Source of the DNA: Hydrurus foetidus
Taxonomy: Eukaryota
Direction of reading: 5' to 3'
Length of the DNA stretch: 37,478 nucleotides
Assembly: GCA_900617105.1 (NCBI GenBank)
Contig: UYFQ01000230.1
Coordinates: 1 to 37,478 of the forward strand
Each line of letters opens with the position of its first letter. Within the stretch, counting starts at the first letter, position 1. Made by a program: the position numbers and the translations under genes. Under the pieces are notes generated by a model that saw only the letters and a program-made list of their open reading frames with translations, made no database searches and was not told where the DNA came from. Shown in pieces: positions 1-30,961 of this stretch.

Positions 1-66
1 CTCGGAGCCACAGCGACAACTTTATTTTCGGACAATTTGGAGGCTCAGGATGCAGAGACAAGATTT
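1..66 (+). CDS. gag: 5' fragment of Copia-1 gag, upstream of the Gypsy insertion (partial)
   Basis: Frame LGATATTLFSDNLEAQDAETRF is open and joins in frame to SFADVARLIDIM at 7565 when 67-7564 is removed. Confidence 0.75.
63..66. repeat. Target site duplication ATTT (left copy)
   Basis: ATTT at 63-66 and at 7561-7564 flank the two LTRs. Confidence 0.8.
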
Positions 67-375
67 TGTTATAGTTTCCACTATGTATATATAACACGTA
101 CGTACGCACGTTGCTCACAACCACAAGTTTTTCATTCCAGTTTTCTGTTTCTGATTCTTAGATTGCTTCAACTCGTGATGCACTCGTTGCCTGTCAATCT
201 CACTCACTTTTCATCGCTTTAAAACTTTAACTGAAACACCTATACCGATACGGCTTCTCTTAGCCATCTCCGCTATTCTGGACTGACTTTCTTGTCAGCT
301 AGAAGATCTTCGTCTCCTGCTTTCTTGCAGAACGAATCACCGCTTTTAGTCACTTCACGACGTGCAACCGGCATA
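67..375 (+). repeat. 5' LTR of Gypsy element (309 bp, TG...TA)
   Basis: Identical by inspection to 7252-7560; starts TGTTATAG, ends GGCATA. Confidence 0.95.
86..94 (+). promoter_or_regulatory. Possible TATA box in LTR (TATATATAA)
   Basis: Motif match only; unusually close to the LTR start. Confidence 0.3.
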
Positions 376-632
376 AAAGTACTTTTCTCGTTCACGCACT
401 TCGCGCAATCGAAAGACGTTTTCCTCGGAAAGTTATTCAGTATCTTATCTCGTAGAGGCCTCGATCAGTTTGCACAATTACTCTACTCTGAGAAGATTCG
501 GACATAAAGCTACGCAAGCTCTGAAAAAGCAAGAGTCAAGAAGTTTTTGTGTAAGTCTTTGTTTCCAATCTGAAACTTCCGTCTACAGCCGATCTACAAA
601 TTCTCTTCTCCTATACTCTGGCTAGAAATTCC

Positions 633-2288
633 ATGTCGCTAGAGGATTCTACCAACTCTAAGGAGAACAACCCAGCAGTGGATAGTCAACTAGACATGAT
701 GCTCATGTTCAAACAGTTCATGAAGTCAAGCCAAGAAGACAGAATCCGCAACTCAAATGAGTTTACAGAGCTCCGATCAGCGATAGCCTTGATATCCAGA
801 GGATCCCCGCAGATTTCACTCGATTCACCGATTCCAGATCGAGCCAATGCCAATAGAAGATCTTCAATGTTCTTCGGCAGTCCGTTACCAAAGGAACGCG
901 AATCGACGACGAAAACGCAAATACAAGTACTGCAAGCTGACATCATCTACGATAAAGAATTGAAAGTCAGCTCACTGGAAGGACTGCAGTATCTTGCAAA
1001 GCAGCTACAACTCTTTACCTCCAAGTATCCTGGTCGCGAAGTCAGGACTGCACATATGGTTGCCTTCTCGCTGCGCCCTCACGTTATTGCTTCATGGAAC
1101 TCTTACTGCTTCAAGGAATCTCAAATCGCGGGATTGGAAGTAAAAGAAATTATGGTTGAGGACTGGTTATCCCTATCCAATGGTCAAGTTCAAGAAATCC
1201 TCGTTGAGTCAGCTCGACCTCGGACGCGAGAACTCTATTCTCGCGAGCTCGTACTCTTCCTTGGCAAAGGCATTCCCCAGACTCCGACAATCAACCCTGA
1301 AAACTTTTCGTCCACGTTCTATGCGCCTCTGATGAAATCCCTCAATGACCTCCTCCATCTCCACGATTTGCTATCTGAAGAGACAAGCAATCACAGCAAC
1401 AACAAATCCAAAATGCCTGTCCCTGGATATGGAACTCGTGATAGCCCTGGCCAGACTCAACTCTGGATCATATCACTCGGCAATCAGAAGGAAGCTGTTC
1501 TTCAATGGCTCGGCAAAGATGAGCTATCCAAGCACAAGGCCCTAGCTCCCGCAGTCAAGTTTATTCACTCTAAACTCATGGAAGGTCGTCTAAACAGCGA
1601 GGCTCGGCAAGACTTTGATTCCAAGCTCACACCCATTCGCTATGAAGACATCAGACATATGCAAGGAGAATCAAACACAAGGCAACAGACGAACTTCAGT
1701 TCGAAGCCACAGAGCAAGCAACAGAACAAGATACCTTTCTCAAGAAACCATCGTCCACTTGATCATTTCTCTGCCATTCATTCCGCTGCACCAGATTCTT
1801 CATATCGTACCAGCTGTGAAGACGACAACTACTTTGATTACAATGAAGATGGTGACAACACGATCTACGATGAAGACAACAACGACTTCACCGATGACCT
1901 CGAGTATTCAACCATCTACAAAACGCCGACAAACTTTCAACACGACAATGAGCTATCCGCACTAGAGAATCTATCTTCCCGCAGCGCAATTGCGAGTACA
2001 TTTCGCGGTTACTGTAGCGAGCTGTTCGTCTTTGGTTCTTGCCACCGTCGGGACTCAGGATGTACATTAGATCACACTTCATCTGGACAAGAGAAATGCA
2101 TACACTCCTTCAATCTACTCGCGAAGAGAGACCTGACTCAGCATGGACAACTTCCGGCATTCAGCAACGCTACCACACCAGAACGATCAGGATCATTTAA
2201 ACCATCGTTTCCTACCTCTCGCCAGGATAGCCGAATTCCGAAACCTTACGTATCCAATCAAGGCATGCGCTCACTCAAGAACAAGTAG
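633..2288 (+). CDS. gag: Gypsy Gag-like protein with CCCH-type zinc finger
   Basis: 551-aa ORF directly after the 5' LTR and leader; C-x8-C-x6-C-x3-H at 2013-2075; ends in TAG in frame with the protease. Confidence 0.85.
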   Translation: MSLEDSTNSKENNPAVDSQLDMMLMFKQFMKSSQEDRIRNSNEFTELRSAIALISRGSPQISLDSPIPDRANANRRSSMFFGSPLPKERESTTKTQIQVLQADIIYDKELKVSSLEGLQYLAKQLQLFTSKYPGREVRTAHMVAFSLRPHVIASWNSYCFKESQIAGLEVKEIMVEDWLSLSNGQVQEILVESARPRTRELYSRELVLFLGKGIPQTPTINPENFSSTFYAPLMKSLNDLLHLHDLLSEETSNHSNNKSKMPVPGYGTRDSPGQTQLWIISLGNQKEAVLQWLGKDELSKHKALAPAVKFIHSKLMEGRLNSEARQDFDSKLTPIRYEDIRHMQGESNTRQQTNFSSKPQSKQQNKIPFSRNHRPLDHFSAIHSAAPDSSYRTSCEDDNYFDYNEDGDNTIYDEDNNDFTDDLEYSTIYKTPTNFQHDNELSALENLSSRSAIASTFRGYCSELFVFGSCHRRDSGCTLDHTSSGQEKCIHSFNLLAKRDLTQHGQLPAFSNATTPERSGSFKPSFPTSRQDSRIPKPYVSNQGMRSLKNK

Positions 2289-2855
2289 GAGTTTGCAGGA
2301 CCTTCTCTCACTGCAATGCAAGGAGAAGATCATCCTGCCGACAACCCCAAAATATTTGACCCAGACAATACCATATCGACGGCTCTCATTGCTCAACTAG
2401 CGTCTGCAATCTCAGTTGATCCAAAAGACCTGTGCCACCCGTTTATTCGGCCAGGAACAATACGAAGTCCCGACGGATCCTCTACAATTATTTTCGATAA
2501 AGGTCTACTCGACACTGGCGCCCAAGGCAGCAACTTCATTTCAGAAGACCTGTACTCGCGTCTGCCGGCCATCATTACCAATTTATCGAGACCCATCGAT
2601 CGTGTTGTTCGACTAGGAGACGCACGACACCTCTTCATACAACTTGAGGTACCACTAAATGTCTCTATTACGGACTTCAATGGACAAGACCATGAACACA
2701 CTCTATGGTACAGCGTCCTTAAAGAACTTAGCCATGACATCATCATAGGACTTGTTGATCTCATCGGCCCTTTCTACACTCTGTTCGAAAACTCAGTTGC
2801 CACATCACGCCATACGCCAAGTCTCGTGATCTCGGTAGTCACCTATCCGCCTTGA
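2289..2855 (+). CDS. Retropepsin-type aspartic protease, in frame with gag after the UAG
   Basis: LLDTGAQGSNFIS active-site motif and downstream DIIIG motif; 2289-2315 is open in frame up to ATG 2316. Confidence 0.88.
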   Translation, partial: EFAGPSLTAMQGEDHPADNPKIFDPDNTISTALIAQLASAISVDPKDLCHPFIRPGTIRSPDGSSTIIFDKGLLDTGAQGSNFISEDLYSRLPAIITNLSRPIDRVVRLGDARHLFIQLEVPLNVSITDFNGQDHEHTLWYSVLKELSHDIIIGLVDLIGPFYTLFENSVATSRHTPSLVISVVTYPP

Positions 2856-5800
2856 CAACGACAATTATGACCTTAGCAACCAACGATCCAACTGACCATA
2901 TGATGCAGCAAACTTCTGAGGCAATCAAGTTGGAACACACTGTCTACAAGGATCGGAAACGTTCAATCCAATCCAGCGTGAATACAACTATTTCTCTCCT
3001 TGCTCTACAAGATGGCTCAACAGTTGAAACACTCCATCATCCTTTGCACGGCAACGTCTATGCTGACGAACGCATGGAAACAAGATACGACATCTTGACC
3101 TCACAATTATGCACCCCAACCCCAGGTCTTGTCATGACACCGTGGTCCAATCTGATTGATGCACTCGCTCCCGAGGAACTCGATACGCCTGACCCTACCA
3201 GTTTCCCGGATGACATACTCGGATATCTCGCTATGACTCCTGAAAGCACACGCGCAATTTACCGCGTCGATCTCGAGACCCATATCACAACTGAAATGCG
3301 AGAGGCTTGCCCGCATATAGTAGACCTACTGACATCAGAACTAGCATACGATGTGTTCGTACCGAGCACCTGGACTGGCATACGCATGGATCCATATCAT
3401 CTCGATACCAAACCCGGCCTTCCAGATCATATCAAAGCACATGCTCGACCAGTACGTGAAGCACTCTTTGAAGATGCTAGGACAGAATTCAATAGAATGC
3501 GGACATATTTCTACGAGAAGTCAACGTCACCAATTGCTTCGCCGCTAGTAATTGCTCCCAAAGCCACAGCCCCTTTCATTCGTATCTGTGGCGACTACCG
3601 TCCAATTAATCCTTACGTGAGCATCCCACAAGAACCGATCCCTCATGTGCAGCAATCACTCGCCAAAGCTGCTGGATGGAATGTATTCGTTGATCTAGAC
3701 ATGACCAACTCGTTCCATCAAATTCCAATCGACATTGCCAGCTCTAATCTCCTATCAGTATCTACACCGTGGGGCTTATTCAGACCAAAATTTTTGCCAG
3801 AGGGTGTCGGACCTGCGTCAGGCATACTGCAGTCAGTAGTACGCCGAGTATTTTCTGACTTCGAACAGTGGATCATCGTAATCTTCGACAACTTTCTGAT
3901 TCTGGCGTCCGACTATGCAGACGCTGCAGACAAGCTGGAGAAAGTGCTCATACGTTGTCAATTGCATCGGCTCGTACTCAAGATGAAAAAATCATGGATC
4001 GGCACCACTGTAGTCACATTCTTTGGCTACGAAGTGAGACCCGGATCTTGGAGTCTCTCCAACAGCCGTAAAGAGGCAATATCCAATATGATCTTCCCAG
4101 CAAACCAGAAGCAAATGCAAAGCTTCCTAGGTGCCGCCAACTTCTTTCACACTCATATCCCCAATTACGCACAGTGGGCATCGTGCTTGTATGAATGCAC
4201 TACAGCATCGTTTGATTGGAACCCCTCGACATGGACCAATGACTACAAAGATCTCTTCGCTATCTTCAAAACCGCGATAACAAATTCTGCAACACTCTAC
4301 TTCCCGGACTACTCTCTTCCATGGATCATTCGCTCAGATTCTTCGGATAACGCAGTCGGTGCAGTCCTGTTCCAGGAGTTCACGGACACGTCAAACAATA
4401 TTATTCATCAGCCAATAGCATTTGCATCACACAAGTACTCAGGCGCCGCCATCAATTGGGACACGTTCAAACAAGAGGCTTACGCTCTCTACTTTGCAGT
4501 GACACAGTTCTCATACTACTTACGTGGCAAACCGTTCGTCATCGAGACCGATCACCGCAACCTAGTTTGGATAGAATCGAGTTTAGTTCCTATTGTTATT
4601 CGCTGGCGAGTACTGTTGCAGAGCTACGTATTCGATATCAAACACATACCTGGCAAGCAGAAGATGGTCGCCGACTGGCTGTCGCGAATGCACCCTATAC
4701 CCGTTCCACTTCTCACAGCTATCACAGACTACCCACCTTTAAGCGAGATGTTCGCTGCTGTCCACGGCAATCGCTCCCTGCATCACGGTGCAAAGCGTAC
4801 GTATACTAAGTTGTGTTCCCGCTACCCTGGTCATGGCATTCCGATACGTGTTATACAAGACCTTGTATTTGAATGTCCAATATGTCAGAAGGATCGCATA
4901 CCTTTACAGCCCATCCCTCACGCTGAAGCACGGCAAACACTGATGCATCATGCTCGCACTATCGGAATGGATCACGTCACAGTGACACCCGCCGATGAGG
5001 ATGGCTATATCGGACTCCTGCTTGTAGTAGAATTTGACACGAAGTTCCCCCAAGCATATCCTGTCAGAGACTACGGTGCACTCACTGTCGCCACCGTGCT
5101 ATTCAAGCACTATTGTACGTTCGGTACATACAACGCTATCATATCTGATCCTAGCAGTGCCTTCACTGCAACAGTCGTGCAACATCTCAACACATGGTTC
5201 GGCATACCGCATCATATCTCTGTAGTTGGACGACATGAGTCAAACGGAACCGAACATGTCAATGCTCTATTCATCGGCCACCTCCGTCGACTCGTCCACG
5301 ATCAACGGATGACTAACCGCTGGGCCTCGGACACAATACTCCCCCTTATCAATCATGCCATGTCGACGATGCCAAATTCCGATGCCTATTCACCGCATGA
5401 TCTCAAATTTGGAACAGTCGATAAGCAGCACTTTCGGTTACCGACAGCTCTGCCTCCTGGAAATTCATACGCGGAATTCATCAATACATTGAATGAGAAT
5501 TTGTCAACAATACGTGCCATTACAAGCCAATATCAACTCGAACTACGTACCAGGCGACAACTTGAGAATCCCGCTGCCAGTCAAAACCTGTATCAAGCCG
5601 GTGATCTCATACTATGGAATCCGAGAGAACATTCGAAGTCCTTCAGGTCGTCAAAACTAGCTCCAAAATTACTGGGACCCTTCGTTGTGTTGACTCAGAA
5701 GAAGAACGATGTTACGTGTGAGCATATACAATCAAAAGAAATTCGTGTGTTTCACGCATCTCGCATCTCTCCCTACATTGGTTCACACACATCAGCAGCA

Positions 5801-6028
5801 GATGCTAGTCTACTGGATTCAGTGGAATATATTGTCGAGTCAATAACAGCACATCGAGGATCATGGACATCACTTACCTCACTCGAGTTCCTTGTACACT
5901 GGCTTGGATATCCAACCGAAGACGACACTTGGGAACCATACCGCAATCTTCGTCATCTTGATGCCCTCCACGAGTACCTGCGAAAAAATAATAAAGAGAG
6001 TCTAATACCAAATATCCACCGGAACTAG
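2852..6028 (+). CDS. pol: Pol: reverse transcriptase, RNase H, integrase, GPF motif and chromodomain (frameshifted relative to PR)
   Basis: RT: RICGDYRPIN, DLDMTNSFHQI, LPEG, IFDN, FFGY. RH: SDSS, EAYA, TDHRNL, ADWLSR. IN: H..H..CPIC, MDH, SDP, TEH. LLGPF. Chromodomain YIVESI...FLVHWLGY...TWEP. Confidence 0.95.
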   Translation: MTTTIMTLATNDPTDHMMQQTSEAIKLEHTVYKDRKRSIQSSVNTTISLLALQDGSTVETLHHPLHGNVYADERMETRYDILTSQLCTPTPGLVMTPWSNLIDALAPEELDTPDPTSFPDDILGYLAMTPESTRAIYRVDLETHITTEMREACPHIVDLLTSELAYDVFVPSTWTGIRMDPYHLDTKPGLPDHIKAHARPVREALFEDARTEFNRMRTYFYEKSTSPIASPLVIAPKATAPFIRICGDYRPINPYVSIPQEPIPHVQQSLAKAAGWNVFVDLDMTNSFHQIPIDIASSNLLSVSTPWGLFRPKFLPEGVGPASGILQSVVRRVFSDFEQWIIVIFDNFLILASDYADAADKLEKVLIRCQLHRLVLKMKKSWIGTTVVTFFGYEVRPGSWSLSNSRKEAISNMIFPANQKQMQSFLGAANFFHTHIPNYAQWASCLYECTTASFDWNPSTWTNDYKDLFAIFKTAITNSATLYFPDYSLPWIIRSDSSDNAVGAVLFQEFTDTSNNIIHQPIAFASHKYSGAAINWDTFKQEAYALYFAVTQFSYYLRGKPFVIETDHRNLVWIESSLVPIVIRWRVLLQSYVFDIKHIPGKQKMVADWLSRMHPIPVPLLTAITDYPPLSEMFAAVHGNRSLHHGAKRTYTKLCSRYPGHGIPIRVIQDLVFECPICQKDRIPLQPIPHAEARQTLMHHARTIGMDHVTVTPADEDGYIGLLLVVEFDTKFPQAYPVRDYGALTVATVLFKHYCTFGTYNAIISDPSSAFTATVVQHLNTWFGIPHHISVVGRHESNGTEHVNALFIGHLRRLVHDQRMTNRWASDTILPLINHAMSTMPNSDAYSPHDLKFGTVDKQHFRLPTALPPGNSYAEFINTLNENLSTIRAITSQYQLELRTRRQLENPAASQNLYQAGDLILWNPREHSKSFRSSKLAPKLLGPFVVLTQKKNDVTCEHIQSKEIRVFHASRISPYIGSHTSAADASLLDSVEYIVESITAHRGSWTSLTSLEFLVHWLGYPTEDDTWEPYRNLRHLDALHEYLRKNNKESLIPNIHRN

Positions 6029-6161
6029 TTTCTCCACGATGTATACTGATCGTGGCCAGGTATCACAAACTGCTGACCGCTCAATGTAACATGGTACGAG
6101 ACCACTATGTGAGGACGTCCTTAGAAAGTGGGTAACCCCTGCAAAAACAACTATTTAAAAA

Positions 6162-6842
6162 TTATTTCCCCAAAGGGATCGAACCCGAGGGGGGAGTCGA
6201 ACCCGGAGGTTGAGATGCCTTCTTCCACCCCTTCTTGTACAAATCAAAGAAGAAACAATACGTCAAATCAGCCATTTTATCTGCCAAGTTCTCCACAGTA
6301 AATTCAACACTACCAGCAGTACATGCATTGTCAAATAATCTCACTCCGTTTTCATCACTCCGTATACTGACTGCGTGATCATGCCTGCTGTACCCTGTCG
6401 CTTTCTTGCTATAAGTCTCCACTTTGTCCTCCACGCCTTCCGCTTTCCCTATCCTCTTTAACAAAGCTTTGTGTTCTGCGTTCTTCAATTTTGATTTGCC
6501 GAACAAAATGTATATACCCTTGTTCGCCAGCACTGTCTTGATCAATGATTTCACGCACCAGCACCTGTCTTTGTCCACTCTGCCAATCACCCTACGGAAC
6601 TCGAACTTCAACTTTCTGCCCATCTTCCTATTCTGTACACACACATGCTTCAAAAAATTCAACGCGTCATGCGATGATGCTCCGTAATGTAGTTTACTTG
6701 TGACATCGACAGCAATTGAATTCTTGTACACATCACCAGCATCACCACCCAATCGAATCCAATCCTGCTTTTCGCTCGACAATGGCAATACCATTGCTGC
6801 TGCCAGGCATAAGTTCTTTGATGGCCTGAAGTCGTCTGTCAT
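6162..6842 (-). CDS. Antisense accessory ORF (226 aa), putative papain-like (C39-like) cysteine peptidase fold
   Basis: Open ORF between pol and the 3' LTR; NLC(12)LAAA, GASSHD, GIYILFG, H(156)AVSI, LFD(171)N pattern. Function inferred from motifs only. Confidence 0.6.
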   Translation of the reverse strand: MTDDFRPSKNLCLAAAMVLPLSSEKQDWIRLGGDAGDVYKNSIAVDVTSKLHYGASSHDALNFLKHVCVQNRKMGRKLKFEFRRVIGRVDKDRCWCVKSLIKTVLANKGIYILFGKSKLKNAEHKALLKRIGKAEGVEDKVETYSKKATGYSRHDHAVSIRSDENGVRLFDNACTAGSVEFTVENLADKMADLTYCFFFDLYKKGWKKASQPPGSTPPSGSIPLGK

Positions 6843-7239
6843 GTTCTATACTTGTGTTGTGCTTGTCATGTAGTATATATCCTGCACCATCACACAGCCA
6901 TCAATTTATCAATGGTTATCACGGCGGCACCATCAATTTTAAAAAAATCTTTTAGAGCCACACATGCCGCCCCACACGACATGCGGAGACTCCGGTTTCG
7001 CTTTTCCAAGGACTCACCATGTGTACACAGTTTTGTGGTAGAGCGCCTATCCTTCCCACCACATTTTGGCGCGCCAAGAGGTCTGCGGTTCAAACCCAGC
7101 TTTTTCATCCACCTATCGTTTTCGCAATTACTGCACTATGTAGCTTCTTTAGCGGTACATTTCTTCATGCGAAGTCTCAGAGATGTAGCAGAGGACTTTG
7201 TATTCATTTATTTGACATCCACAATTTGACATTTCACAT

Positions 7240-7251
7240 GGAGAGGGGTGG
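7240..7251 (+). other. Polypurine tract (GGAGAGGGGTGG)
   Basis: Purine-rich tract immediately 5' of the 3' LTR. Confidence 0.88.
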
Positions 7252-7560
7252 TGTTATAGTTTCCACTATGTATATATAACACGTACGTACGCACGTTGCT
7301 CACAACCACAAGTTTTTCATTCCAGTTTTCTGTTTCTGATTCTTAGATTGCTTCAACTCGTGATGCACTCGTTGCCTGTCAATCTCACTCACTTTTCATC
7401 GCTTTAAAACTTTAACTGAAACACCTATACCGATACGGCTTCTCTTAGCCATCTCCGCTATTCTGGACTGACTTTCTTGTCAGCTAGAAGATCTTCGTCT
7501 CCTGCTTTCTTGCAGAACGAATCACCGCTTTTAGTCACTTCACGACGTGCAACCGGCATA
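7252..7560 (+). repeat. 3' LTR of Gypsy element
   Basis: Identical to 67-375; preceded by the PPT and followed by the ATTT TSD. Confidence 0.95.
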
Positions 7561-7564
7561 ATTT
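7561..7564. repeat. Target site duplication ATTT (right copy)
   Basis: Matches 63-66. Confidence 0.8.
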
Positions 7565-9487
7565 TCCTTCGCCGATGTGGCAAGGCTCATCGACATCATG
7601 TCTGCTAAGATCCAACAGCCTCCACCGTTGGTCTCCCAACCGAAATCAACAGTTGGATCTGCCTCTATTCCAAGTGCTTCAACGCCCAAGGCTTCTTCTA
7701 TCTTATCGGTGCCCATATCAGAATACTTGGATACCACCTCTGCGCAATCGAAATTCTTCTTTTCGATGCCCAAGTTTTCCAACTCTGGGAAGGACAACCG
7801 CGACAACATGGAAATGTTCATGGTCGCTCTAGGTGAATGTAAACTTCTTACATTAGCCAAATGCGATCGTGAGTTACCAGTCATTACTGCTCGGAACCCT
7901 GGAGGGTATTCACCTAGGTCACTGGTATTAGCAGAAGAAGGATTGTATGATGTCATCCCAGCTGATGACATCTACAAAAGATTACACGATTTGGATCGAT
8001 TATTAGTTATCCTCAATATGGTTACTGGGAAAGATCTACATTATTTGATCAAGCGTGTGATTGCCGACAACGATGCGGTCTTATGGTTCAAGACTATCTA
8101 CGATCACATCAACGGCACAAAGAACAGCGACATCAGGAAGGCAACGGATCAGCTCCACTCCCTGAAGCTTAAGTCCACACAAACCATTCAGGAGAATGTG
8201 GCAACCATCGAAGAGGCCTTCAGAGTCCTCAAAGTCGCAAGTGGCGTGCTCGTCACTGATGATCAAAAGCTTTATCATCTACAGGAAAAGCTGGAGCATG
8301 ATGCAAGATTCAGCGTCTTATCAATCATGGCCTCATCAAAGACATCAAAGGCATCCTATGACGACACCATCAAATACCTTGTGCTTCTTGATCCTGCCCC
8401 AGCGGTAGTTCACAAGATGGCTTCCCTTACTCCAACCTTGGAGCTGTGCAGACGTCACATCGCTGGCCCATGTACCAACGGTTCCTCATGCAAGTATTCA
8501 CATGCAGCAGCGCCGCCAAACAAGGGAGCACCATCTGACAAGAAGCCCAACAAGAACCCGCCTCCTCTCAAGAAAGATCAGAAGACTCCACAGAAGTTTC
8601 CTTTCAAGAAACCAATCATCGTGTCAGATTCCCATCGATCACTTGTTGGTTATCCCAAAGGAGTTGCAACGGCAAAGAACCCAGCTGGATACTCATTGAA
8701 CCAACTTACAACCATCAGGACTTTGCAATCTGCTGATGTTGACGGCTGGACTACAGGAGATCCTCAGTATTTCAATGGCGATGGGTCGAGCAACCATATC
8801 GATCGGTTCAATGTTCTTCGCTTCAAGGAACAATCAACGACATCCATTGCTGAGTTCCCAGAGTTCTACCACCTTGAGCCCTTTCCAAGACTTCGTGAGA
8901 TCAGACGTCACCTGTTCACAATGCTCAACTCGGTCGAGAAGTATAACAGATTCGCCGGTTCATCTCCCAGCGACTACGATGGATCTCCTACTGATCCTCT
9001 CTCCGGAATTGTTGTCAGCTTCCAAGACCTGACAGCAGCTGAACCAAGGATGGTACACATCTTGGTGGCATTCACATGGCTTTCAGAGAGCCCAACCATC
9101 TCGAGATCCGTGAAAATCCGAGAAGATGTTCGTACAGCAGACAAACGGCTTATGAGGATGCTATACAAAATCGGAAACAGATTCTTGAACGCCGACGTGT
9201 TGATTCCAGACAGGGAGGGTTCCGAAAATTTCAGTTATATGAACTTCAACCCTCTCTCCGACAAATTCTATCATTCCGACGACTATGAGTTCTACCAATC
9301 AAACATGAGAAACGTGGAAAAGTACTTTGTTGCTATCAGATACATCATGGAGCATCCTGACATTCCATGGCGACTTCTACGTATTCTCTCTTTGGCTATT
9401 ATCTACGACTTTATGTCATTCTGCGCTCACTACTTCATGATGCAGTGCAATTGCAAGCTGACGAATCCCAGACAAGAGCAAATGTGA
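7565..9487 (+). CDS. gag: Copia-1 Gag continuation with CCCH finger, followed by an unknown domain; frameshifted in the first repeat unit
   Basis: 636-aa ORF from 7577; helical capsid-like region (DQLHSLK...EEAFRVL...DDQKLYHL); C-x7-C-x5-C-x3-H at 8447-8503; homologous to Copia-2 Gag. Confidence 0.8.
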   Translation, partial: SFADVARLIDIMSAKIQQPPPLVSQPKSTVGSASIPSASTPKASSILSVPISEYLDTTSAQSKFFFSMPKFSNSGKDNRDNMEMFMVALGECKLLTLAKCDRELPVITARNPGGYSPRSLVLAEEGLYDVIPADDIYKRLHDLDRLLVILNMVTGKDLHYLIKRVIADNDAVLWFKTIYDHINGTKNSDIRKATDQLHSLKLKSTQTIQENVATIEEAFRVLKVASGVLVTDDQKLYHLQEKLEHDARFSVLSIMASSKTSKASYDDTIKYLVLLDPAPAVVHKMASLTPTLELCRRHIAGPCTNGSSCKYSHAAAPPNKGAPSDKKPNKNPPPLKKDQKTPQKFPFKKPIIVSDSHRSLVGYPKGVATAKNPAGYSLNQLTTIRTLQSADVDGWTTGDPQYFNGDGSSNHIDRFNVLRFKEQSTTSIAEFPEFYHLEPFPRLREIRRHLFTMLNSVEKYNRFAGSSPSDYDGSPTDPLSGIVVSFQDLTAAEPRMVHILVAFTWLSESPTISRSVKIREDVRTADKRLMRMLYKIGNRFLNADVLIPDREGSENFSYMNFNPLSDKFYHSDDYEFYQSNMRNVEKYFVAIRYIMEHPDIPWRLLRILSLAIIYDFMSFCAHYFMMQCNCKLTNPRQEQM

Positions 9488-12400
9488 TATTCACATTGAA
9501 TACATATCGATCCAACGCACAGTTCTTGGATCAGATAGTCTTCCACGATGCTTTTTCTGCAGTCATCAACAACATCAAACCAATGCCTCCAGCACCACAG
9601 TCTTATGCATTGCAGACAAGCCCAATCACGACATCATATTCACGTATGAGTGCCATCAACAGAGAGGACCTGCTTAGTGAGACGACTGACCACACTGAAG
9701 AAAATGACATTCCATGGCGACTTCTACGTATTCTCTCTTTGGCTATTATCTACGACTTTATGTCATTCTGCGCTCAACTACTTCATGATGCAGTGCAAAT
9801 GCAAGCTGACGAATCCCAGACAAGAGCAAATGTGATATTCACATTGAATACATATCGATCCAACGCACAGTTCTTGGATCAGATAGTCTTCCACGATGCT
9901 TTTTCTGCAGTCATCAACAACATCAAACCAATGCCTCCAGCACCACAGTCTTATGCATTGCAGACAAGCCCAATCACGACATCATATTCACGTATGAGTG
10001 CCATCAACAGAGAGGACCTGCTTAGTGAGACGACTGACCACACTGAAGAAAATGACATTCCATGGCGACTTCTACGTATTCTCTCTTTGGCTATTATCTA
10101 CGACTTTATGTCATTCTGCGCTCACTACTTCATGATGCAGTGCAAATGCAAGCTGACGAATCCCAGACAAGAGCAAATGTGATATTCACATTGAATACAT
10201 ATCGATCCAACGCACAGTTCTTGGATCAGATAGTCTTCCACGATGCTTTTTCTGCAGTCATCAACAACATCAAACCAATGCCTCCAGCACCACAGTCTTA
10301 TGCATTGCAGACAAGCCCAATCACGACATCATATTCACGTATGAGTGCCATCAACAGAGAGGACCTGCTTAGTGAGACGACTGACCACACTGAAGAAAAT
10401 GACATTCCATGGCGACTTCTACGTATTCTCTCTTTGGCTATTATCTACGACTTTATGTCATTCTGCGCTCAACTACTTCATGATGCAGTGCAATTGCAAG
10501 CTGACGAATCCCAGACAAGAGCAAATGTGATATTCACATTGAATACATATCGATCCAACGCACAGTTCTTGGATCAGATAGTCTTCCACGATGCTTTTTC
10601 TGCAGTCATCAACAACATCAAACCAATGCCTCCAGCACCACAGTCTTATGCATTGCAGACAAGCCCAATCACGACATCATATTCACGTATGAGTGCCATC
10701 AACAGAGAGGACCTGCTTAGTGAGACGACTGACCACACTGAAGAAAATGACATTCCATGGCGACTTCTACGTATTCTCTCTTTGGCTATTATCTACGACT
10801 TTATGTCATTCTGCGCTCAACTACTTCATGATGCAGTGCAAATGCAAGCTGACGAATCCCAGACAAGAGCAAATGTGATATTCACATTGAATACATATCG
10901 ATCCAACGCACAGTTCTTGGATCAGATAGTCTTCCACGATGCTTTTTCTGCAGTCATCAACAACATCAAACCAATGCCTCCAGCACCACAGTCTTATGCA
11001 TTGCAGACAAGCCCAATCACGACATCATATTCACGTATGAGTGCCATCAACAGAGAGGACCTGCTTAGTGAGACGACTGACCACACTGAAGAAAATGACA
11101 TTCCATGGCGACTTCTACGTATTCTCTCTTTGGCTATTATCTACGACTTTATGTCATTCTGCGCTCAACTACTTCATGATGCAGTGCAAATGCAAGCTGA
11201 CGAATCCCAGACAAGAGCAAATGTGATATTCACATTGAATACATATCGATCCAACGCACAGTTCTTGGATCAGATAGTCTTCCACGATGCTTTTTCTGCA
11301 ATCATCAACAACATCAAACCAATGCCTCCAGCACCACAGTCTTATGCATTGCAGACAAGCCCAATCACGACATCATATTCACGTATGAGTGCCATCAACA
11401 GAGAGGACCTGCTTAGTGAGACGACTGACCACACTGAAGAAAATGACATTCCATGGCGACTTCTACGTATTCTCTCTTTGGCTATTATCTACGACTTTAT
11501 GTCATTCTGCGCTCAACTACTTCATGATGCAGTGCAAATGCAAGCTGACGAATCCCAGACAAGAGCAAATGTGATATTCACATTGAATACATATCGATCC
11601 AACGCACAGTTCTTGGATCAGATAGTCTTCCACGATGCTTTTTCTGCAGTCATCAACAACATCAAACCAATGCCTCCAGCACCACAGTCTTATGCATTGC
11701 AGACAAGCCCAATCACGACATCATATTCACGTATGAGTGCCATCAACAGAGAGGACCTGCTTAGTGAGACGACTGACCACACTGAAGAAAATGACATTCC
11801 ATGGCGACTTCTACGTATTCTCTCTTTGGCTATTATCTACGACTTTATGTCATTCTGCGCTCAACTACTTCATGATGCAGTGCAAATGCAAGCTGACGAA
11901 TCCCAGACAAGAGCAAATGTGATATTCACATTGAATACATATCGATCCAACGCACAGTTCTTGGATCAGATAGTCTTCCACGATGCTTTTTCTGCAGTCA
12001 TCAACAACATCAAACCAATGCCTCCAGCACCACAGTCTTATGCATTGCAGACAAGCCCAATCACGACATCATATTCACGTATGAGTGCCATCAACAGAGA
12101 GGACCTGCTTAGTGAGACGACTGACCACACTGAAGAAAATGACATTCCATGGCGACTTCTACGTATTCTCTCTTTGGCTATTATCTACGACTTTATGTCA
12201 TTCTGCGCTCAACTACTTCATGATGCAGTGCAAATGCAAGCTGACGAATCCCAGACAAGAGCAAATGTGATATTCACATTGAATACATATCGATCCAACG
12301 CACAGTTCTTGGATCAGATAGTCTTCCACGATGCTTTTTCTGCAGTCATCAACAACATCAAACCAATGCCTCCAGCACCACAGTCTTATGCATTGCAGAC

Positions 12401-15400
12401 AAGCCCAATCACGACATCATATTCACGTATGAGTGCCATCAACAGAGAGGACCTGCTTAGTGAGACGACTGACCACACTGAAGAAAATGACATTCCATGG
12501 CGACTTCTACGTATTCTCTCTTTGGCTATTATCTACGACTTTATGTCATTCTGCGCTCAACTACTTCATGATGCAGTGCAAATGCAAGCTGACGAATCCC
12601 AGACAAGAGCAAATGTGATATTCACATTGAATACATATCGATCCAACGCACAGTTCTTGGATCAGATAGTCTTCCACGATGCTTTTTCTGCAGTCATCAA
12701 CAACATCAAACCAATGCCTCCAGCACCACAGTCTTATGCATTGCAGACAAGCCCAATCACGACATCATATTCACGTATGAGTGCCATCAACAGAGAGGAC
12801 CTGCTTAGTGAGACGACTGACCACACTGAAGAAAATGACATTCCATGGCGACTTCTACGTATTCTCTCTTTGGCTATTATCTACGACTTTATGTCATTCT
12901 GCGCTCACTACTTCATGATGCAGTGCAAATGCAAGCTGACGAATCCCAGACAAGAGCAAATGTGATATTCACATTGAATACATATCGATCCAACGCACAG
13001 TTCTTGGATCAGATAGTCTTCCACGATGCTTTTTCTGCAGTCATCAACAACATCAAACCAATGCCTCCAGCACCACAGTCTTATGCATTGCAGACAAGCC
13101 CAATCACGACATCATATTCACGTATGAGTGCCATCAACAGAGAGGACCTGCTTAGTGAGACGACTGACCACACTGAAGAAAATGACATTCCATGGCGACT
13201 TCTACGTATTCTCTCTTTGGCTATTATCTACGACTTTATGTCATTCTGCGCTCAACTACTTCATGATGCAGTGCAAATGCAAGCTGACGAATCCCAGACA
13301 AGAGCAAATGTGATATTCACATTGAATACATATCGATCCAACGCACAGTTCTTGGATCAGATAGTCTTCCACGATGCTTTTTCTGCAGTCATCAACAACA
13401 TCAAACCAATGCCTCCAGCACCACAGTCTTATGCATTGCAGACAAGCCCAATCACGACATCATATTCACGTATGAGTGCCATCAACAGAGAGGACCTGCT
13501 TAGTGAGACGACTGACCACACTGAAGAAAATGACATTCCATGGCGACTTCTACGTATTCTCTCTTTGGCTATTATCTACGACTTTATGTCATTCTGCGCT
13601 CAACTACTTCATGATGCAGTGCAAATGCAAGCTGACGAATCCCAGACAAGAGCAAATGTGATATTCACATTGAATACATATCGATCCAACGCACAGTTCT
13701 TGGATCAGATAGTCTTCCACGATGCTTTTTCTGCAGTCATCAACAACATCAAACCAATGCCTCCAGCACCACAGTCTTATGCATTGCAGACAAGCCCAAT
13801 CACGACATCATATTCACGTATGAGTGCCATCAACAGAGAGGACCTGCTTAGTGAGACGACTGACCACACTGAAGAAAATGACATTCCATGGCGACTTCTA
13901 CGTATTCTCTCTTTGGCTATTATCTACGACTTTATGTCATTCTGAGCTCAACTACTTCATGATGCAGTGCAAATGCAAGCTGACGAATCCCAGACAAGAG
14001 CAAATGTGATATTCACATTGAATACATATCGATCCAACGCACAGTTCTTGGATCAGATAGTCTTCCACGATGCTTTTCTGCAGTCATCAACAACATCAAA
14101 CCAATGCCTCCAGCACCACAGTCTTATGCATTGCAGACAAGCCCAATCACGACATCATATTCACGTATGAGTGCCATCAACAGAGAGGACCTGCTTAGTG
14201 AGACGACTGACCACACTGAAGAAAATGACATTCCATGGCGACTTCTACGTATTCTCTCTTTGGCTATTATCTACGACTTTATGTCATTCTGAGCTCAACT
14301 ACTTCATGATGCAGTGCAAATGCAAGCTGACGAATCCCAGACAAGAGCAAATGTGATATTCACATTGAATACATATCGATCCAACGCACAGTTCTTGGAT
14401 CAGATAGTCTTCCACGATGCTTTTTCTGCAGTCATCAACAACATCAAACCAATGCCTCCAGCACCACAGTCTTATGCATTGCAGACAAGCCCAATCACGA
14501 CATCATATTCACGTATGAGTGCCATCAACAGAGAGGACCTGCTTAGTGAGACGACTGACCACACTGAAGAAAATGACATTCCATGGCGACTTCTACGTAT
14601 TCTCTCTTTGGCTATTATCTACGACTTTATGTCATTCTGCGCTCAACTACTTCATGATGCAGTGCAAATGCAAGCTGACGAATCCCAGACAAGAGCAAAT
14701 GTGATATTCACATTGAATACATATCGATCCAACGCACAGTTCTTGGATCAGATAGTCTTCCACGATGCTTTTTCTGCAGTCATCAACAACATCAAACCAA
14801 TGCCTCCAGCACCACAGTCTTATGCATTGCAGACAAGCCCAATCACGACATCATATTCACGTATGAGTGCCATCAACAGAGAGGACCTGCTTAGTGAGAC
14901 GACTGACCACACTGAAGAAAATGACATTCCATGGCGACTTCTACGTATTCTCTCTTTGGCTATTATCTACGACTTTATGTCATTCTGCGCTCAACTACTT
15001 CATGATGCAGTGCAAATGCAAGCTGACGAATCCCAGACAAGAGCAAATGTGATATTCACATTGAATACATATCGATCCAACGCACAGTTCTTGGATCAGA
15101 TAGTCTTCCACGATGCTTTTTCTGCAGTCATCAACAACATCAAACCAATGCCTCCAGCACCACAGTCTTATGCATTGCAGACAAGCCCAATCACGACATC
15201 ATATTCACGTATGAGTGCCATCAACAGAGAGGACCTGCTTAGTGAGACGACTGACCACACTGAAGAAAATGACATTCCATGGCGACTTCTACGTATTCTC
15301 TCTTTGGCTATTATCTACGACTTTATGTCATTCTGCGCTCAACTACTTCATGATGCAGTGCAAATGCAAGCTGACGAATCCCAGACAAGAGCAAATGTGA

Positions 15401-18400
15401 TATTCACATTGAATACATATCGATCCAACGCACAGTTCTTGGATCAGATAGTCTTCCACGATGCTTTTTCTGCAGTCATCAACAACATCAAACCAATGCC
15501 TCCAGCACCACAGTCTTATGCATTGCAGACAAGCCCAATCACGACATCATATTCACGTATGAGTGCCATCAACAGAGAGGACCTGCTTAGTGAGACGACT
15601 GACCACACTGAAGAAAATGACATTCCATGGCGACTTCTACGTATTCTCTCTTTGGCTATTATCTACGACTTTATGTCATTCTGCGCTCAACTACTTCATG
15701 ATGCAGTGCAAATGCAAGCTGACGAATCCCAGACAAGAGCAAATGTGATATTCACATTGAATACATATCGATCCAACGCACAGTTCTTGGATCAGATAGT
15801 CTTCCACGATGCTTTTTCTGCAGTCATCAACAACATCAAACCAATGCCTCCAGCACCACAGTCTTATGCATTGCAGACAAGCCCAATCACGACATCATAT
15901 TCACGTATGAGTGCCATCAACAGAGAGGACCTGCTTAGTGAGACGACTGACCACACTGAAGAAAATGACATTCCATGGCGACTTCTACGTATTCTCTCTT
16001 TGGCTATTATCTACGACTTTATGTCATTCTGCGCTCAACTACTTCATGATGCAGTGCAAATGCAAGCTGACGAATCCCAGACAAGAGCAAATGTGATATT
16101 CACATTGAATACATATCGATCCAACGCACAGTTCTTGGATCAGATAGTCTTCCACGATGCTTTTTCTGCAGTCATCAACAACATCAAACCAATGCCTCCA
16201 GCACCACAGTCTTATGCATTGCAGACAAGCCCAATCACGACATCATATTCACGTATGAGTGCCATCAACAGAGAGGACCTGCTTAGTGAGACGACTGACC
16301 ACACTGAAGAAAATGACATTCCATGGCGACTTCTACGTATTCTCTCTTTGGCTATTATCTACGACTTTATGTCATTCTGCGCTCAACTACTTCATGATGC
16401 AGTGCAAATGCAAGCTGACGAATCCCAGACAAGAGCAAATGTGATATTCACATTGAATACATATCGATCCAACGCACAGTTCTTGGATCAGATAGTCTTC
16501 CACGATGCTTTTTCTGCAGTCATCAACAACATCAAACCAATGCCTCCAGCACCACAGTCTTATGCATTGCAGACAAGCCCAATCACGACATCATATTCAC
16601 GTATGAGTGCCATCAACAGAGAGGACCTGCTTAGTGAGACGACTGACCACACTGAAGAAAATGACATTCCATGGCGACTTCTACGTATTCTCTCTTTGGC
16701 TATTATCTACGACTTTATGTCATTCTGAGCTCAACTACTTCATGATGCAGTGCAAATGCAAGCTGACGAATCCCAGACAAGAGCAAATGTGATATTCACA
16801 TTGAATACATATCGATCCAACGCACAGTTCTTGGATCAGATAGTCTTCCACGATGCTTTTTCTGCAGTCATCAACAACATCAAACCAATGCCTCCAGCAC
16901 CACAGTCTTATGCATTGCAGACAAGCCCAATCACGACATCATATTCACGTATGAGTGCCATCAACAGAGAGGACCTGCTTAGTGAGACGACTGACCACAC
17001 TGAAGAAAATGACATTCCATGGCGACTTCTACGTATTCTCTCTTTGGCTATTATCTACGACTTTATGTCATTCTGCGCTCAACTACTTCATGATGCAGTG
17101 CAAATGCAAGCTGACGAATCCCAGACAAGAGCAAATGTGATATTCACATTGAATACATATCGATCCAACGCACAGTTCTTGGATCAGATAGTCTTCCACG
17201 ATGCTTTTTCTGCAGTCATCAACAACATCAAACCAATGCCTCCAGCACCACAGTCTTATGCATTGCAGACAAGCCCAATCACGACATCATATTCACGTAT
17301 GAGTGCCATCAACAGAGAGGACCTGCTTAGTGAGACGACTGACCACACTGAAGAAAATGACATTCCATGGCGACTTCTACGTATTCTCTCTTTGGCTATT
17401 ATCTACGACTTTATGTCATTCTGCGCTCAACTACTTCATGATGCAGTGCAAATGCAAGCTGACGAATCCCAGACAAGAGCAAATGTGATATTCACATTGA
17501 ATACATATCGATCCAACGCACAGTTCTTGGATCAGATAGTCTTCCACGATGCTTTTTCTGCAGTCATCAACAACATCAAACCAATGCCTCCAGCACCACA
17601 GTCTTATGCATTGCAGACAAGCCCAATCACGACATCATATTCACGTATGAGTGCCATCAACAGAGAGGACCTGCTTAGTGAGACGACTGACCACACTGAA
17701 GAAAATGACATTCCATGGCGACTTCTACGTATTCTCTCTTTGGCTATTATCTACGACTTTATGTCATTCTGCGCTCACTACTTCATGATGCAGTGCAAAT
17801 GCAAGCTGACGAATCCCAGACAAGAGCAAATGTGATATTCACATTGAATACATATCGATCCAACGCACAGTTCTTGGATCAGATAGTCTTCCACGATGCT
17901 TTTTCTGCAGTCATCAACAACATCAAACCAATGCCTCCAGCACCACAGTCTTATGCATTGCAGACAAGCCCAATCACGACATCATATTCACGTATGAGTG
18001 CCATCAACAGAGAGGACCTGCTTAGTGAGACGACTGACCACACTGAAGAAAATGACATTCCATGGCGACTTCTACGTATTCTCTCTTTGGCTATTATCTA
18101 CGACTTTATGTCATTCTGCGCTCACTACTTCATGATGCAGTGCAAATGCAAGCTGACGAATCCCAGACAAGAGCAAATGTGATATTCACATTGAATACAT
18201 ATCGATCCAACGCACAGTTCTTGGATCAGATAGTCTTCCACGATGCTTTTTCTGCAATCATCAACAACATCAAACCAATGCCTCCAGCACCACAGTCTTA
18301 TGCATTGCAGACAAGCCCAATCACGACATCATATTCACGTATGAGTGCCATCAACAGAGAGGACCTGCTTAGTGAGACGACTGACCACACTGAAGAAAAT

Positions 18401-24753: not shown

Positions 24754-24801
24754 TTGAAGCCTGAAGACTTCAAAGATAAGTTACCCGATTCCCCGACCAA
24801 A

Positions 24802-27833: not shown

Positions 27834-27890
27834 TGGTAGCGATTGAAGCCTGAAGACTTCAAAGATAAGTTACCCGATTCCCCGACCAAA

Positions 27891-30904: not shown

Positions 30905-30961
30905 TGGTAGCGATTGAAGCCTGAAGACTTCAAAGATAAGTTACCCGATTCCCCGACCAAA

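What the first reader, a model, noticed from the sequence alone, without database searches (positions are those of the whole stretch)
6162..6842. Antisense cargo ORF resembling a papain-like Cys-His-Asp peptidase inside the Gypsy element
Seen: an intact 226-aa minus-strand ORF between pol and the PPT, with Cys12 at the start of a predicted helix (KNLCLAAAM), a G-x-S-x-x-D motif, a hydrophobic strand (GIYILFG), His156 in HAVSI and Asp171 in RLFDN, 15 residues later. Established: this order and spacing match papain-fold enzymes such as C39-like peptidases, and some transposons carry deSUMOylase or deubiquitinase-type proteases. Inference: an element-encoded cysteine protease or isopeptidase, perhaps anti-silencing, expressed antisense from the 3' LTR side. 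It is not env-like.
Basis: partly seen in the sequence, partly recalled or inferred. Interest (0 to 1): 0.8.

Follow-up and report, generated by a model that had tools for sequence, protein, structure and literature searches.

The report
Retrotransposon-borne antisense papain-like cysteine peptidase
A young Gypsy-type retrotransposon in this window carries, on its opposite strand, an intact and widely conserved gene that is predicted to fold as a papain-type cysteine protease; it likely helps the element by cutting a host protein or a ubiquitin-like tag, and my literature searches found no description of such an accessory gene in this kind of element.

Summary
ORF 6162-6842 (-), 226 aa, is intact and lies between pol and the polypurine tract of a chromodomain Gypsy element with 100% identical LTRs.

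- **Real gene:** 103 cluster representatives match it in public metagenome and transcriptome data, down to about 24% identity. None carries a name. No Pfam or PDB sequence match was found.
- **Conserved residues:** His156 is invariant (60 of 60). Asp171 is D or N in 58 of 59. Cys12 is present in 23 of the 24 sequences that have that column.
- **Selection:** 9 of 12 listed variants inside the ORF are synonymous in the minus frame.
- **Fold:** with a 66-sequence alignment AlphaFold2 gives pLDDT 88.4. Cys12 opens a helix, His156 opens a strand and Asp171 follows the next strand.
- **Structural neighbours:** a search of 48,161 PDB representatives lists almost only papain-like cysteine peptidases. 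The top rows are tied at Z 7.3-7.9: Helitron VTD deubiquitinase, C39 peptidase domains, staphopain, Josephin.

Enzyme activity, substrate, an anti-silencing role and antisense expression remain untested. It is not a member of Pfam C39 or of the VTD family by their defining sequence features. I rate it a new variant of a known kind, interest about 0.6.

The parts
67..376 (+). 5' LTR (TG at 67; CA at 372-373; identity with the 3' LTR runs to 376)
   Evidence: 100% identical direct repeat; sequence read
633..2288 (+). gag-like ORF, 551 aa
   Evidence: ORF list; no Pfam family above threshold; assignment by position, inferred
2316..2855 (+). Likely aspartic protease ORF (LLDTGAQGS motif)
   Evidence: Translation; no Pfam hit; assignment from the D-T-G motif and position, inferred
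2852..6028 (+). pol: reverse transcriptase, RNase H, integrase, SH3-like domain, chromodomain
   Evidence: Pfam RVT_1 9.1e-09, RT_RNaseH 6.5e-25, Chromo 3.5e-10, with weaker rve and Integrase_H2C2 hits
6162..6842 (-). Antisense accessory ORF, 226 aa: predicted papain-like cysteine peptidase
6807..6809 (-). Codon of Cys12, the likely nucleophile; first residue of predicted helix 12-18
6375..6377 (-). Codon of His156, the likely general base; first residue of predicted strand 156-163; invariant in 60 of 60
6330..6332 (-). Codon of Asp171, the likely third triad residue; follows predicted strand 166-170; D in 54 and N in 4 of 59
6874..6879 (-). TATA-like box 37 nt upstream of the ORF's ATG; candidate internal antisense promoter, untested
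6843..7239 (.). Non-coding spacer between the antisense ORF and the polypurine tract
   Evidence: Only short ORFs on either strand
7240..7251 (+). Polypurine tract ggagaggggtgg, directly before the 3' LTR
   Evidence: Sequence read
7252..7561 (+). 3' LTR

Best explanation
The 226-codon minus-strand ORF at 6162-6842 is a conserved accessory gene of a young chromodomain Gypsy retrotransposon, and it is predicted to fold as a papain-like cysteine peptidase with Cys12, His156 and Asp171 as its likely catalytic triad.

Shown:
- The ORF is intact and sits between pol and the polypurine tract of an element with identical LTRs.
- It belongs to a family of more than 100 sequence clusters, all unnamed.
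- The three residues are conserved.
- The predicted fold's structural neighbours are almost all papain-like cysteine peptidases.

Inferred:
- The protein would be made from its own antisense transcription unit. That unit would start near a TATA-like box at about 6879 and end shortly after the stop at 6162. It would therefore be independent of the gag-pol genomic RNA.
- The protein would act in trans as a thiol peptidase. Cys12, at the helix N-terminus, would attack a peptide or isopeptide bond. His156 would act as general base, oriented by Asp171.

The substrate I think most likely is a short extended C-terminal tail of the Gly-Gly type, that is ubiquitin or a ubiquitin-like modifier on host or element proteins. 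The reason is that most tied structural neighbours cut after such tails: VTD, M48, Josephin, UfSP and C39 double-glycine peptidases. Removing such marks would protect element proteins from degradation or blunt host repression. I put about 0.8 on a papain fold with a functional triad, and about 0.35 on ubiquitin or ubiquitin-like deconjugation specifically.
For: - Anatomy.
- Family size: 27 clusters at 50-97% identity; 103 representatives at E<=1e-3, 52 at <=1e-10, all 284 aa or shorter, so no fused forms were seen.
- Conservation in a 60-sequence alignment: His156 60 of 60; Asp171 54 D, 4 N and 1 C of 59; Asn172 56 of 59; Gly115 57 of 60; Cys196 55 of 58; Cys12 23 of the 24 with that column.
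- Distant clusters whose longer forms reach the N-terminus keep an N-[LMQ]-C motif: P0116, P0117, P0120, P0125, P0142 and P0166 clusters.
- Purifying selection on the minus frame: 9 synonymous against 3 non-synonymous listed variants, expected synonymous share 0.21.
- Fold: AlphaFold2 with the 66-row alignment A2 gave mean pLDDT 88.4 and pTM 0.84; H12-18, E156-163, E166-170.
- VIA-align against 48,161 PDB representatives: 49 chains at Z>=5. The top rows are the Helitron VTD deubiquitinase 8add (Z 7.9, 151 aligned), PCAT1 C39 domain (7.8), ComA C39 domain (7.7, 131 of 135 residues), staphopain (7.7), M48 (7.5), Josephin-2 (7.3) and UfSP2 (6.9). By their titles at least 45 of the 50 rows are papain-superfamily enzymes.
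- The second look at Foldseek's own candidates gave the same picture.
- Range offsets place Cys12 on ComA residue 17, PCAT1 residue 21 and staphopain residue 24. I recall these as their catalytic cysteines.
- Language-model look-alikes of two family members are C39, C39_2, C58, IpaJ and ACTMAP-like clusters (leads only).
- Part of the element in other copies: contigs of runs from two studies bridge pol into the ORF (X5 record 5970-6236, X1 record 5962-6179).
- Element-sized context for relatives: the longest contigs of several distinct clusters are 6.9-7.7 kb.
Against: - No match reaches Z 8. The tool warns that Z under 8 can reflect only a common arrangement.
- Foldseek found nothing at E<=1e-3.
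- There is no sequence-level link to any peptidase family: Pfam gave nothing for 24 and for 66 members, and PDB profile searches gave nothing meaningful.
- Triad distances were not measured, because no coordinates are available.
- 36 of the 60 aligned called proteins lack the N-terminal segment with Cys12. Within clusters this looks like different start calls of one gene, but without DNA I cannot exclude truly shorter forms or an intron.
- Rare copies have Tyr in place of the Cys (P0121, P0239).
- The oxyanion Gln that I recall at Cys-6 in C39 and papain is not conserved here; position 6 is K, R, A, Q or P.
- Nothing shows transcription of the minus strand. All runs were contigs without strand information.
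- No evidence bears on the substrate.
Confidence: 0.6

Rival explanations
1. The protein has the papain fold and a working Cys-His-Asp centre but does other chemistry than peptide or isopeptide hydrolysis. Examples are acyl transfer, glutamine deamidation, transglutamination or another amidase reaction on a host or element target.
For: The papain-like superfamily includes acyltransferases, transglutaminases and amidases (PMC10318531, passages). One weak look-alike cluster carries Gln_amidase. No structural neighbour stands out, so the subfamily is open.
Against: The tied top rows are peptidases or isopeptidases by title. No acetyltransferase or transglutaminase entry is among the 50 rows listed.
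Confidence: 0.15
2. It is a processing protease for the element's own proteins, a second maturation step for Gag or Pol, rather than an enzyme aimed at host factors.
For: Retroelements depend on proteolytic maturation. The gene is carried by the element itself.
Against: The element already has its own likely aspartic protease ORF with a D-T-G motif. The peptidase is encoded on the other strand and so cannot be part of the polyprotein. Nothing tested here bears on cleavage sites.
Confidence: 0.1
3. It is a non-catalytic regulatory or scaffold protein that merely keeps a papain-like shape, comparable to the nuclear antisense accessory proteins of plant Gypsy elements.
For: Antisense ORFs between pol and the 3' LTR of plant elements encode proteins thought to be regulatory (PMC11963269, passages). 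The C-terminal tails of the family are basic and predicted disordered (residues 211-226 have pLDDT under 50; sequences). Inactive papain-like proteins exist (PMC10318531).
Against: The most conserved positions are those expected of a catalytic centre: His156 60 of 60, Asp171 D or N in 58 of 59, and Cys12 wherever the N-terminus is present. That pattern would not be expected in a pseudo-enzyme.
Confidence: 0.08
4. It is a host gene picked up recently by this one copy (transduction) with no role for the element.
For: Transduction of cellular sequences by LTR elements is documented (PMC11963269, passages).
Against: Many clusters exist down to about 24% identity. Several clusters have 6.9-7.7 kb longest contigs. 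The pol/ORF junction is bridged in runs of two studies. The ORF bins show word depth in the same range as the pol bins in X5 and X6, although contig depth cannot rank genes. The frame is under purifying selection. No homolog from an annotated genome source (NCBI or UniRef) was listed.
Confidence: 0.05

Closest known systems
VTD (viral tegument-like) deubiquitinases carried by Helitron DNA transposons, e.g. zebrafish DrT1-VTD2, PDB 8ADD (PMC9741609)
   Same: Papain-like fold and top structural row (Z 7.9, rmsd 4.5, 151 aligned). It is a cysteine peptidase domain carried by a mobile element, thought to protect transposition proteins (passages).
   Different: [quoted passage not shown] Here the residue two before His156 is K, H or M, and a canonical Asp follows the His by 15 residues. 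VTDs sit inside the RepHel protein of DNA transposons; this is a stand-alone antisense gene of an LTR retrotransposon. There is no sequence similarity.
Peptidase C39 domains of bacteriocin-exporting ABC transporters (ComA 3k8u/5xe8, PCAT1) and C39-like proteins
   Same: Nearly the whole C39 domain superposes: 131 of 135 residues, Z 7.7, rmsd 3.8. The order is Cys near the N-terminus, His, then Asp about 15-16 residues later. Language-model look-alikes are C39 and C39-like clusters.
   Different: No Pfam PF03412 or PF13529 match. It is not fused to a transporter and is eukaryotic and retroelement-borne. About 70 extra residues, helices between Cys and His, are inserted. The Gln that I recall six residues before the Cys is not conserved.
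Antisense accessory ORFs between pol and the 3' LTR of plant Gypsy elements (Retand, Grande, RIRE2; TRP28 domain, PF04195) (PMC11963269)
   Same: Same place and orientation in the element. Conserved across many copies rather than being a one-off capture (passages).
   Different: Those proteins carry TRP28 or other non-enzymatic domains and are thought to bind DNA. This one has no TRP28 match and a peptidase-type fold. The element here is a chromodomain element with a short (1.2 kb) pol-to-LTR region, and it is not from a flowering plant as far as the run labels suggest.
Enzymatic extra ORFs of bdelloid rotifer LTR retrotransposons (GDSL esterase, DEDDy exonuclease) (PMC5408684)
   Same: LTR elements that keep an additional enzyme gene downstream of pol with intact catalytic residues (passages).
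   Different: Different enzymes. In the passages I read, those ORF3s are described as typically expressed from spliced messages; their strand was not stated there.
Staphopain (C47), Josephin (C86), UfSP (C78) and herpesvirus M48 (C76) peptidases
   Same: Tied structural neighbours at Z 6.9-7.7; canonical papain core.
   Different: No sequence similarity. None is known to me from retrotransposons. The Z scores do not separate them from C39 or VTD.

Membership tests
Papain-like cysteine peptidase superfamily (clan CA-type fold) | [quoted passage not shown] | tested here: met
   The predicted helix 12-18 starts at Cys12; pLDDT of residues 11-20 is 96. Cys is present in 23 of the 24 sequences with that column and in longer forms of the distant clusters.
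Papain-like cysteine peptidase superfamily (clan CA-type fold) | His on a beta-strand followed by a third polar residue (Asn, Asp, Gln or Glu) on the next strand | tested here: met
   His156 opens strand 156-163 and Asp171 follows strand 166-170. His is 60 of 60; D or N is 58 of 59.
Papain-like cysteine peptidase superfamily (clan CA-type fold) | Overall structural similarity to solved members | tested here: met
   An unbiased search of 48,161 chains gave 49 at Z>=5. The listed rows are almost all papain-like enzymes; best Z is 7.9. The picture is the same. Caveat: no Z reaches 8, and Foldseek E-values are 0.02 or worse.
Papain-like cysteine peptidase superfamily (clan CA-type fold) | Cys, His and Asp side chains within hydrogen-bonding distance | not testable with these tools
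Only secondary-structure positions and alignment ranges are available.
Papain-like cysteine peptidase superfamily (clan CA-type fold) | Thiol-dependent hydrolytic activity | not testable with these tools
   Needs a bench assay.
Peptidase C39 / C39_2 (PF03412, PF13529) | Match to the family's sequence model | tested here: not met
   No Pfam family for the window protein at E<=1. No C39 family appeared among the matches of the 24 members at E<=10 or among the 25 of 30 families listed for the 66 members at E<=1.
Peptidase C39 / C39_2 (PF03412, PF13529) | N-terminal domain of an ABC transporter or transporter-linked gene (PMC10318531) | tested here: not met
   All 103 relatives are 284 aa or shorter with no added domains. 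The gene lies in a eukaryotic LTR element.
Peptidase C39 / C39_2 (PF03412, PF13529) | C39-type three-dimensional core | tested here: met
   ComA 5xe8: Z 7.7, rmsd 3.8, 131 of 135 residues. PCAT1 7s5j: Z 7.8, 134 of 151. These are tied with other papain-like families.
VTD deubiquitinases (PMC9741609) | Invariable Asp-x-His motif with mirrored active site | tested here: not met
   The residue two before His156 is K (19), H (4) or M (1) of 24. Asp155 is adjacent to the His, and a canonical Asp171 follows.
VTD deubiquitinases (PMC9741609) | Structural similarity to DrT1-VTD2 or M48 | tested here: inconclusive
   8add Z 7.9 and 2j7q Z 7.5, tied within 1 Z of C39 and staphopain.
Plant antisense accessory ORFs (TRP28, PF04195) | TRP28 domain | tested here: not met
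   No Pfam match.
Plant antisense accessory ORFs (TRP28, PF04195) | Antisense ORF between pol and the 3' LTR, kept in many copies | tested here: met
Chromodomain-bearing Ty3/Gypsy LTR retrotransposon (host element) | LTRs; pol with RT, then RNase H, then integrase, then chromodomain; polypurine tract | tested here: met

The most novel reading that the evidence does not exclude
This is the founding member of an undescribed family of retrotransposon-encoded ubiquitin or ubiquitin-like proteases. It would be the LTR-retrotransposon counterpart of the Helitron VTD and OTU deubiquitinases. It would be expressed from an antisense unit that escapes the element's own RNA processing, and it would strip ubiquitin- or SUMO-type marks that the host uses to degrade or silence the element. 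That would explain why the elements carrying it reach very high copy number.
Probability: 0.25. Interest if true: 0.8.

Novelty: new variant of a known kind. Interest (0 to 1): 0.62.

Why it matters
LTR retrotransposons are usually thought to need only gag and pol. Accessory genes are rare, and most have no assigned biochemistry. Here an accessory gene has a confident predicted enzyme fold, a conserved catalytic centre and a broad but wholly unannotated family. More than 100 clusters match it, with no Pfam model and no named homolog.

If it is active, mobile elements of very different classes (Helitrons, herpesviruses, LTR elements) would each have taken up papain-type peptidases. It would also provide a concrete handle on how a retrotransposon manipulates host protein turnover or silencing: a C12A mutant, activity-based probes and substrate trapping. 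In addition it would justify a new peptidase family entry, so that these ORFs stop being called hypothetical in protist and metagenome annotation.

Tried and rejected
1. First structure job, with the shallow 24-row alignment: pLDDT 45.5, not usable. Foldseek on it gave only weak rows.
2. Sequence links to known families: Pfam on the ORF and on 24 and 66 members, and PDB profile searches with A1 and A2, gave nothing meaningful.
3. DNA context of relatives: scans of metagenome contigs and viral contigs with A1 found no relative. A2 had no stretch conserved enough to scan with. No whole genome is held for the window. So gene order in sister elements rests on contig bridging and contig lengths only.
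4. Expression:
   - All runs were Logan contigs, so no strand, start or end can be read.
   - Two freshwater metatranscriptome runs from two studies (X3, X4) hold 100-151-nt pieces inside the ORF (6434-6584, 6469-6619, 6807-6906) at depth 2-3.6.
   - This shows neither antisense transcription nor its absence. No splice joints were listed.
   - One X1 contig joins 5962-5991 to 6177-6424, but with only 30 letters on one side. That is below the tool's own bar, so I did not count it.
5. A stretch at about 7030-7115 (+) looked tRNA-like by eye and is followed by TTTTT. ARAGORN and Rfam at E<=10 found nothing, so I dropped it as a feature.
6. Short called forms lacking Cys12: I considered that the true protein starts at the conserved Met31. 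Within clusters the same gene is called with several starts, and the longer forms carry the Cys motif, so I treat the short forms as start-call or truncation effects. This is unproven without DNA.
7. Cys68, Cys174 and Asp163 as alternative catalytic residues: they are invariant in the close family but only 29 of 59, 36 of 59 and 34 of 60 in the wide alignment. Rejected.
8. BFVD viral structures: no match at E<=1e-3.
9. The earlier-findings index held nothing for this protein.
10. A complex prediction was not run, because no binding partner is claimed.
11. A target-site duplication could not be fixed. ATTT on both sides fits only if the LTR ends in TA; with a TG..CA LTR the flanks are GATTT and TAATT.

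Full report
**What is in the sequence.** The window holds a complete LTR retrotransposon.
- Two direct repeats, 67-366 and 7252-7551, are 100% identical. The identity extends to 67-376 and 7252-7561.
- Between them lie a gag-like ORF (633-2288) and a short ORF with an LLDTGAQGS motif (2316-2855).
- A 1058-aa pol (2852-6028) follows, with reverse transcriptase, RNase H, integrase, an SH3-like domain and a chromodomain.
- The run ggagaggggtgg (7240-7251) abuts the 3' LTR and serves as the polypurine tract.
- In the 1.2 kb between pol and that tract, the minus strand carries an intact 226-codon ORF, 6162-6842.
The codons of Cys12, His156 and Asp171 are 6807-6809, 6375-6377 and 6330-6332.
- It is the only copy in the window.

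**It is a real, selected gene.**
- A word-indexed search found 27 clusters at 50-97% identity. A profile search added only fragments of the same family.
- An exhaustive HMMER search of 1.84 billion representatives found 103 at E<=1e-3 and 52 at <=1e-10, down to about 24% identity. All are 284 aa or shorter, so no fused forms were seen.
- None has a name or an accession from an annotated genome. All come from ENA, JGI or Logan assemblies.
- Read laying listed 12 single-base variants inside the ORF in other runs. Nine are synonymous in the minus frame, and ten sit at third codon positions. The expected synonymous share is 0.21 (p about 9e-5). This count uses only the listed variants, and some share a contig.

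**It belongs to the element.**
- Contigs of runs from two studies bridge the end of pol into the ORF: X5 at 5970-6236 and X1 at 5962-6179. Another contig bridges the spacer into the 3' LTR: X2 at 7066-7560.
- The element is very abundant in runs X5-X7, with word depths in the thousands across pol and ORF bins alike. Contig depth cannot rank genes, however.
- The longest contigs of several distinct clusters, distant ones included, are 6.9-7.7 kb, about the size of this element.
- I could not fetch any relative's DNA. Gene order in distant relatives is therefore inferred, not seen.

**Conservation.** In a 60-sequence alignment:
- His156 is invariant (60 of 60).
- Asp171 is D in 54, N in 4 and C in 1 of 59. 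Asn172 is kept in 56 of 59.
- The strand G109-x-Y111-x-x-x-G115 is nearly invariant.
- Cys12 is present in 23 of the 24 sequences that have that column.

Thirty-six called proteins lack the N-terminal segment. Of the 70 called proteins of 190 aa or more among the first 115 fetched, 42 carry the Cys12 motif. Within clusters the same gene appears with several called starts, for example 213, 205, 194, 187 and 176 aa in the P0125 cluster, and the longer forms carry the N-[LMQ]-C motif. I therefore read the short forms as start-call or truncation effects. A real short isoform or an intron cannot be excluded without DNA. Two copies have Tyr for the Cys (P0121, P0239). Cys68, Cys174 and Asp163 are invariant among close relatives but are not kept in the wide family.

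**Fold.** With the shallow alignment AlphaFold2 failed (pLDDT 45.5). With the 66-row alignment A2 it gave mean pLDDT 88.4 and pTM 0.84; only the basic tail 211-226 is below 50. In that model:
- Cys12 is the first residue of helix 12-18.
- His156 is the first residue of strand 156-163.
- Asp171 directly follows strand 166-170.

**Structure searches.**
- Foldseek found nothing at E<=1e-3 in PDB or BFVD, but its weak rows are papain-like enzymes.
- VIA-align on Foldseek's candidates gave 106 chains at Z>=5, with the best Z 7.8 for the ComA C39 domain (131-132 of 136-137 residues, rmsd 3.7-3.8).
- The search that does not lean on Foldseek, against 48,161 representatives, gave 49 chains at Z>=5. 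Its top rows are tied:
  - 8add, a Helitron-encoded VTD deubiquitinase: Z 7.9
  - PCAT1 C39 domain: 7.8
  - ComA: 7.7
  - staphopain: 7.7
  - M48: 7.5
  - Josephin-2: 7.3
  - UfSP2: 6.9
- By their titles at least 45 of the 50 listed rows are papain-superfamily enzymes. I could not place the P210 CD lyase, YopQ and the two CDI toxin entries from their titles.
- No row reaches Z 8, which the tool flags as middling. The case rests on the uniformity of the list, the near-complete coverage of the C39 domain and the residue pattern.
- From the range starts, Cys12 falls on ComA residue 17, PCAT1 residue 21 and staphopain residue 24. I recall these as their catalytic cysteines; that mapping is inference.
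- Language-model look-alikes of the window protein and of P0022 are C39, C39_2, C58, IpaJ, ACTMAP-like, Mac-1 and Gln_amidase clusters. These are leads only.

**Which family.** None by sequence.
- Pfam and PDB profile searches are empty.
- It is not a C39 member. There is no model match and no transporter context, and the Gln I recall at Cys-6 is not conserved.
- It is not a VTD. That family's invariable Asp-x-His motif (PMC9741609, passages) is absent: position 154 is K, H or M, and a canonical Asp follows the His.
- It works like a canonical Cys-His-Asp papain-type enzyme, but its subfamily is open.

**How it likely works (inferred).**
- A TATA-like box lies 37 nt before the ATG, inside the internal region. 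An antisense unit there would be independent of the LTR promoter and of the gag-pol RNA.
- The protein would act in trans as a thiol peptidase.
- Most tied neighbours cut after Gly-Gly-type tails: ubiquitin, Ufm1 and double-glycine leaders. Helitron VTDs are thought to protect transposition proteins from degradation (PMC9741609, passages).
- I therefore favour ubiquitin or ubiquitin-like deconjugation at about 0.35. Cleavage of another host factor, other papain-fold chemistry, self-processing and a non-catalytic role are the rivals.
- Nothing here tests expression strand or substrate. RNA-library contigs cover parts of the ORF at depth 2-3.6 in two freshwater metatranscriptomes, but they carry no strand information.

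**Comparison with what is known.**
- Antisense ORFs between pol and the 3' LTR are established in plant Retand, Grande and RIRE2 elements. Those mostly encode the TRP28 domain, of unknown and perhaps DNA-binding function (PMC11963269, passages).
- Bdelloid LTR elements carry GDSL and DEDDy enzyme ORFs (PMC5408684, passages).
- An orchid Gypsy element carries an m6A demethylase domain (PMC9289625, listing and start of abstract only).
- Cysteine peptidase domains are known from Helitrons (PMC9741609).
- Five full-text searches listed no paper describing a papain-like peptidase as an accessory gene of an LTR retrotransposon. The classification paper of papain-like enzymes does not contain the word transposon.
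- I did not read supplements, and subscription journals are not covered.

**Verdict.** The fold reading is supported. The function is inferred. I rate it a new variant of a known kind, interest 0.62.

Noticed in passing
window 9358-21878: A tandem array of 36 copies of a 348-bp unit at 99% identity. The unit is in frame (116 codons) inside the gag-like ORFs of the neighbouring element, giving very long repetitive ORFs.
   Followed up: partly
window 7577-24272: The Gypsy element's 3' LTR is followed within 20 bases by another element's gag-like ORF with a weak, sub-threshold CCCH zinc-finger match. After the tandem array come an ORF with a D-S-G motif (22230-22895) and an integrase-like ORF with a retroviral SH3-like domain (22896-24272). 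That is a Copia-like gene order, so the Gypsy element seems to have inserted just upstream of, or into, that element.
   Followed up: partly
window 24754-37478: A gag-like pair of ORFs (499 aa and 242 aa, the second with a C-x-C-x-C-x-H-like stretch) recurs at least four times at a spacing of about 3.07-3.09 kb (starts 24754, 27843, 30914, 33984). In the last two units the ORFs are split or fused differently. No Pfam family was found.
   Followed up: partly
window about 7030-7115 (+): By eye this stretch resembles a degenerate tRNA, with D-loop-like gtggtagagcgc and T-loop-like ggttcaaaccc, followed by TTTTT. ARAGORN and Rfam did not report it.
   Followed up: yes
window 5962-5991 joined to 6177-6424: One contig of run X1 carries 30 letters of the end of pol directly joined to the ORF's 3' part, skipping 5992-6176. 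This may be a deletion variant of the element or an assembly artefact; the short side is below the tool's bar for a joint.
   Followed up: no
whole record set: The scan's other notes filed under the same genome describe Brevundimonas-like bacterial DNA, while this window is eukaryotic retroelement DNA. The assembly behind it is therefore mixed, and no whole genome is held.
   Followed up: no
window 62-66 and 7559-7565: The target-site duplication is ambiguous. ATTT flanks both sides only if the LTR ends in TA; with a TG..CA LTR the flanks are GATTT and TAATT.
   Followed up: partly
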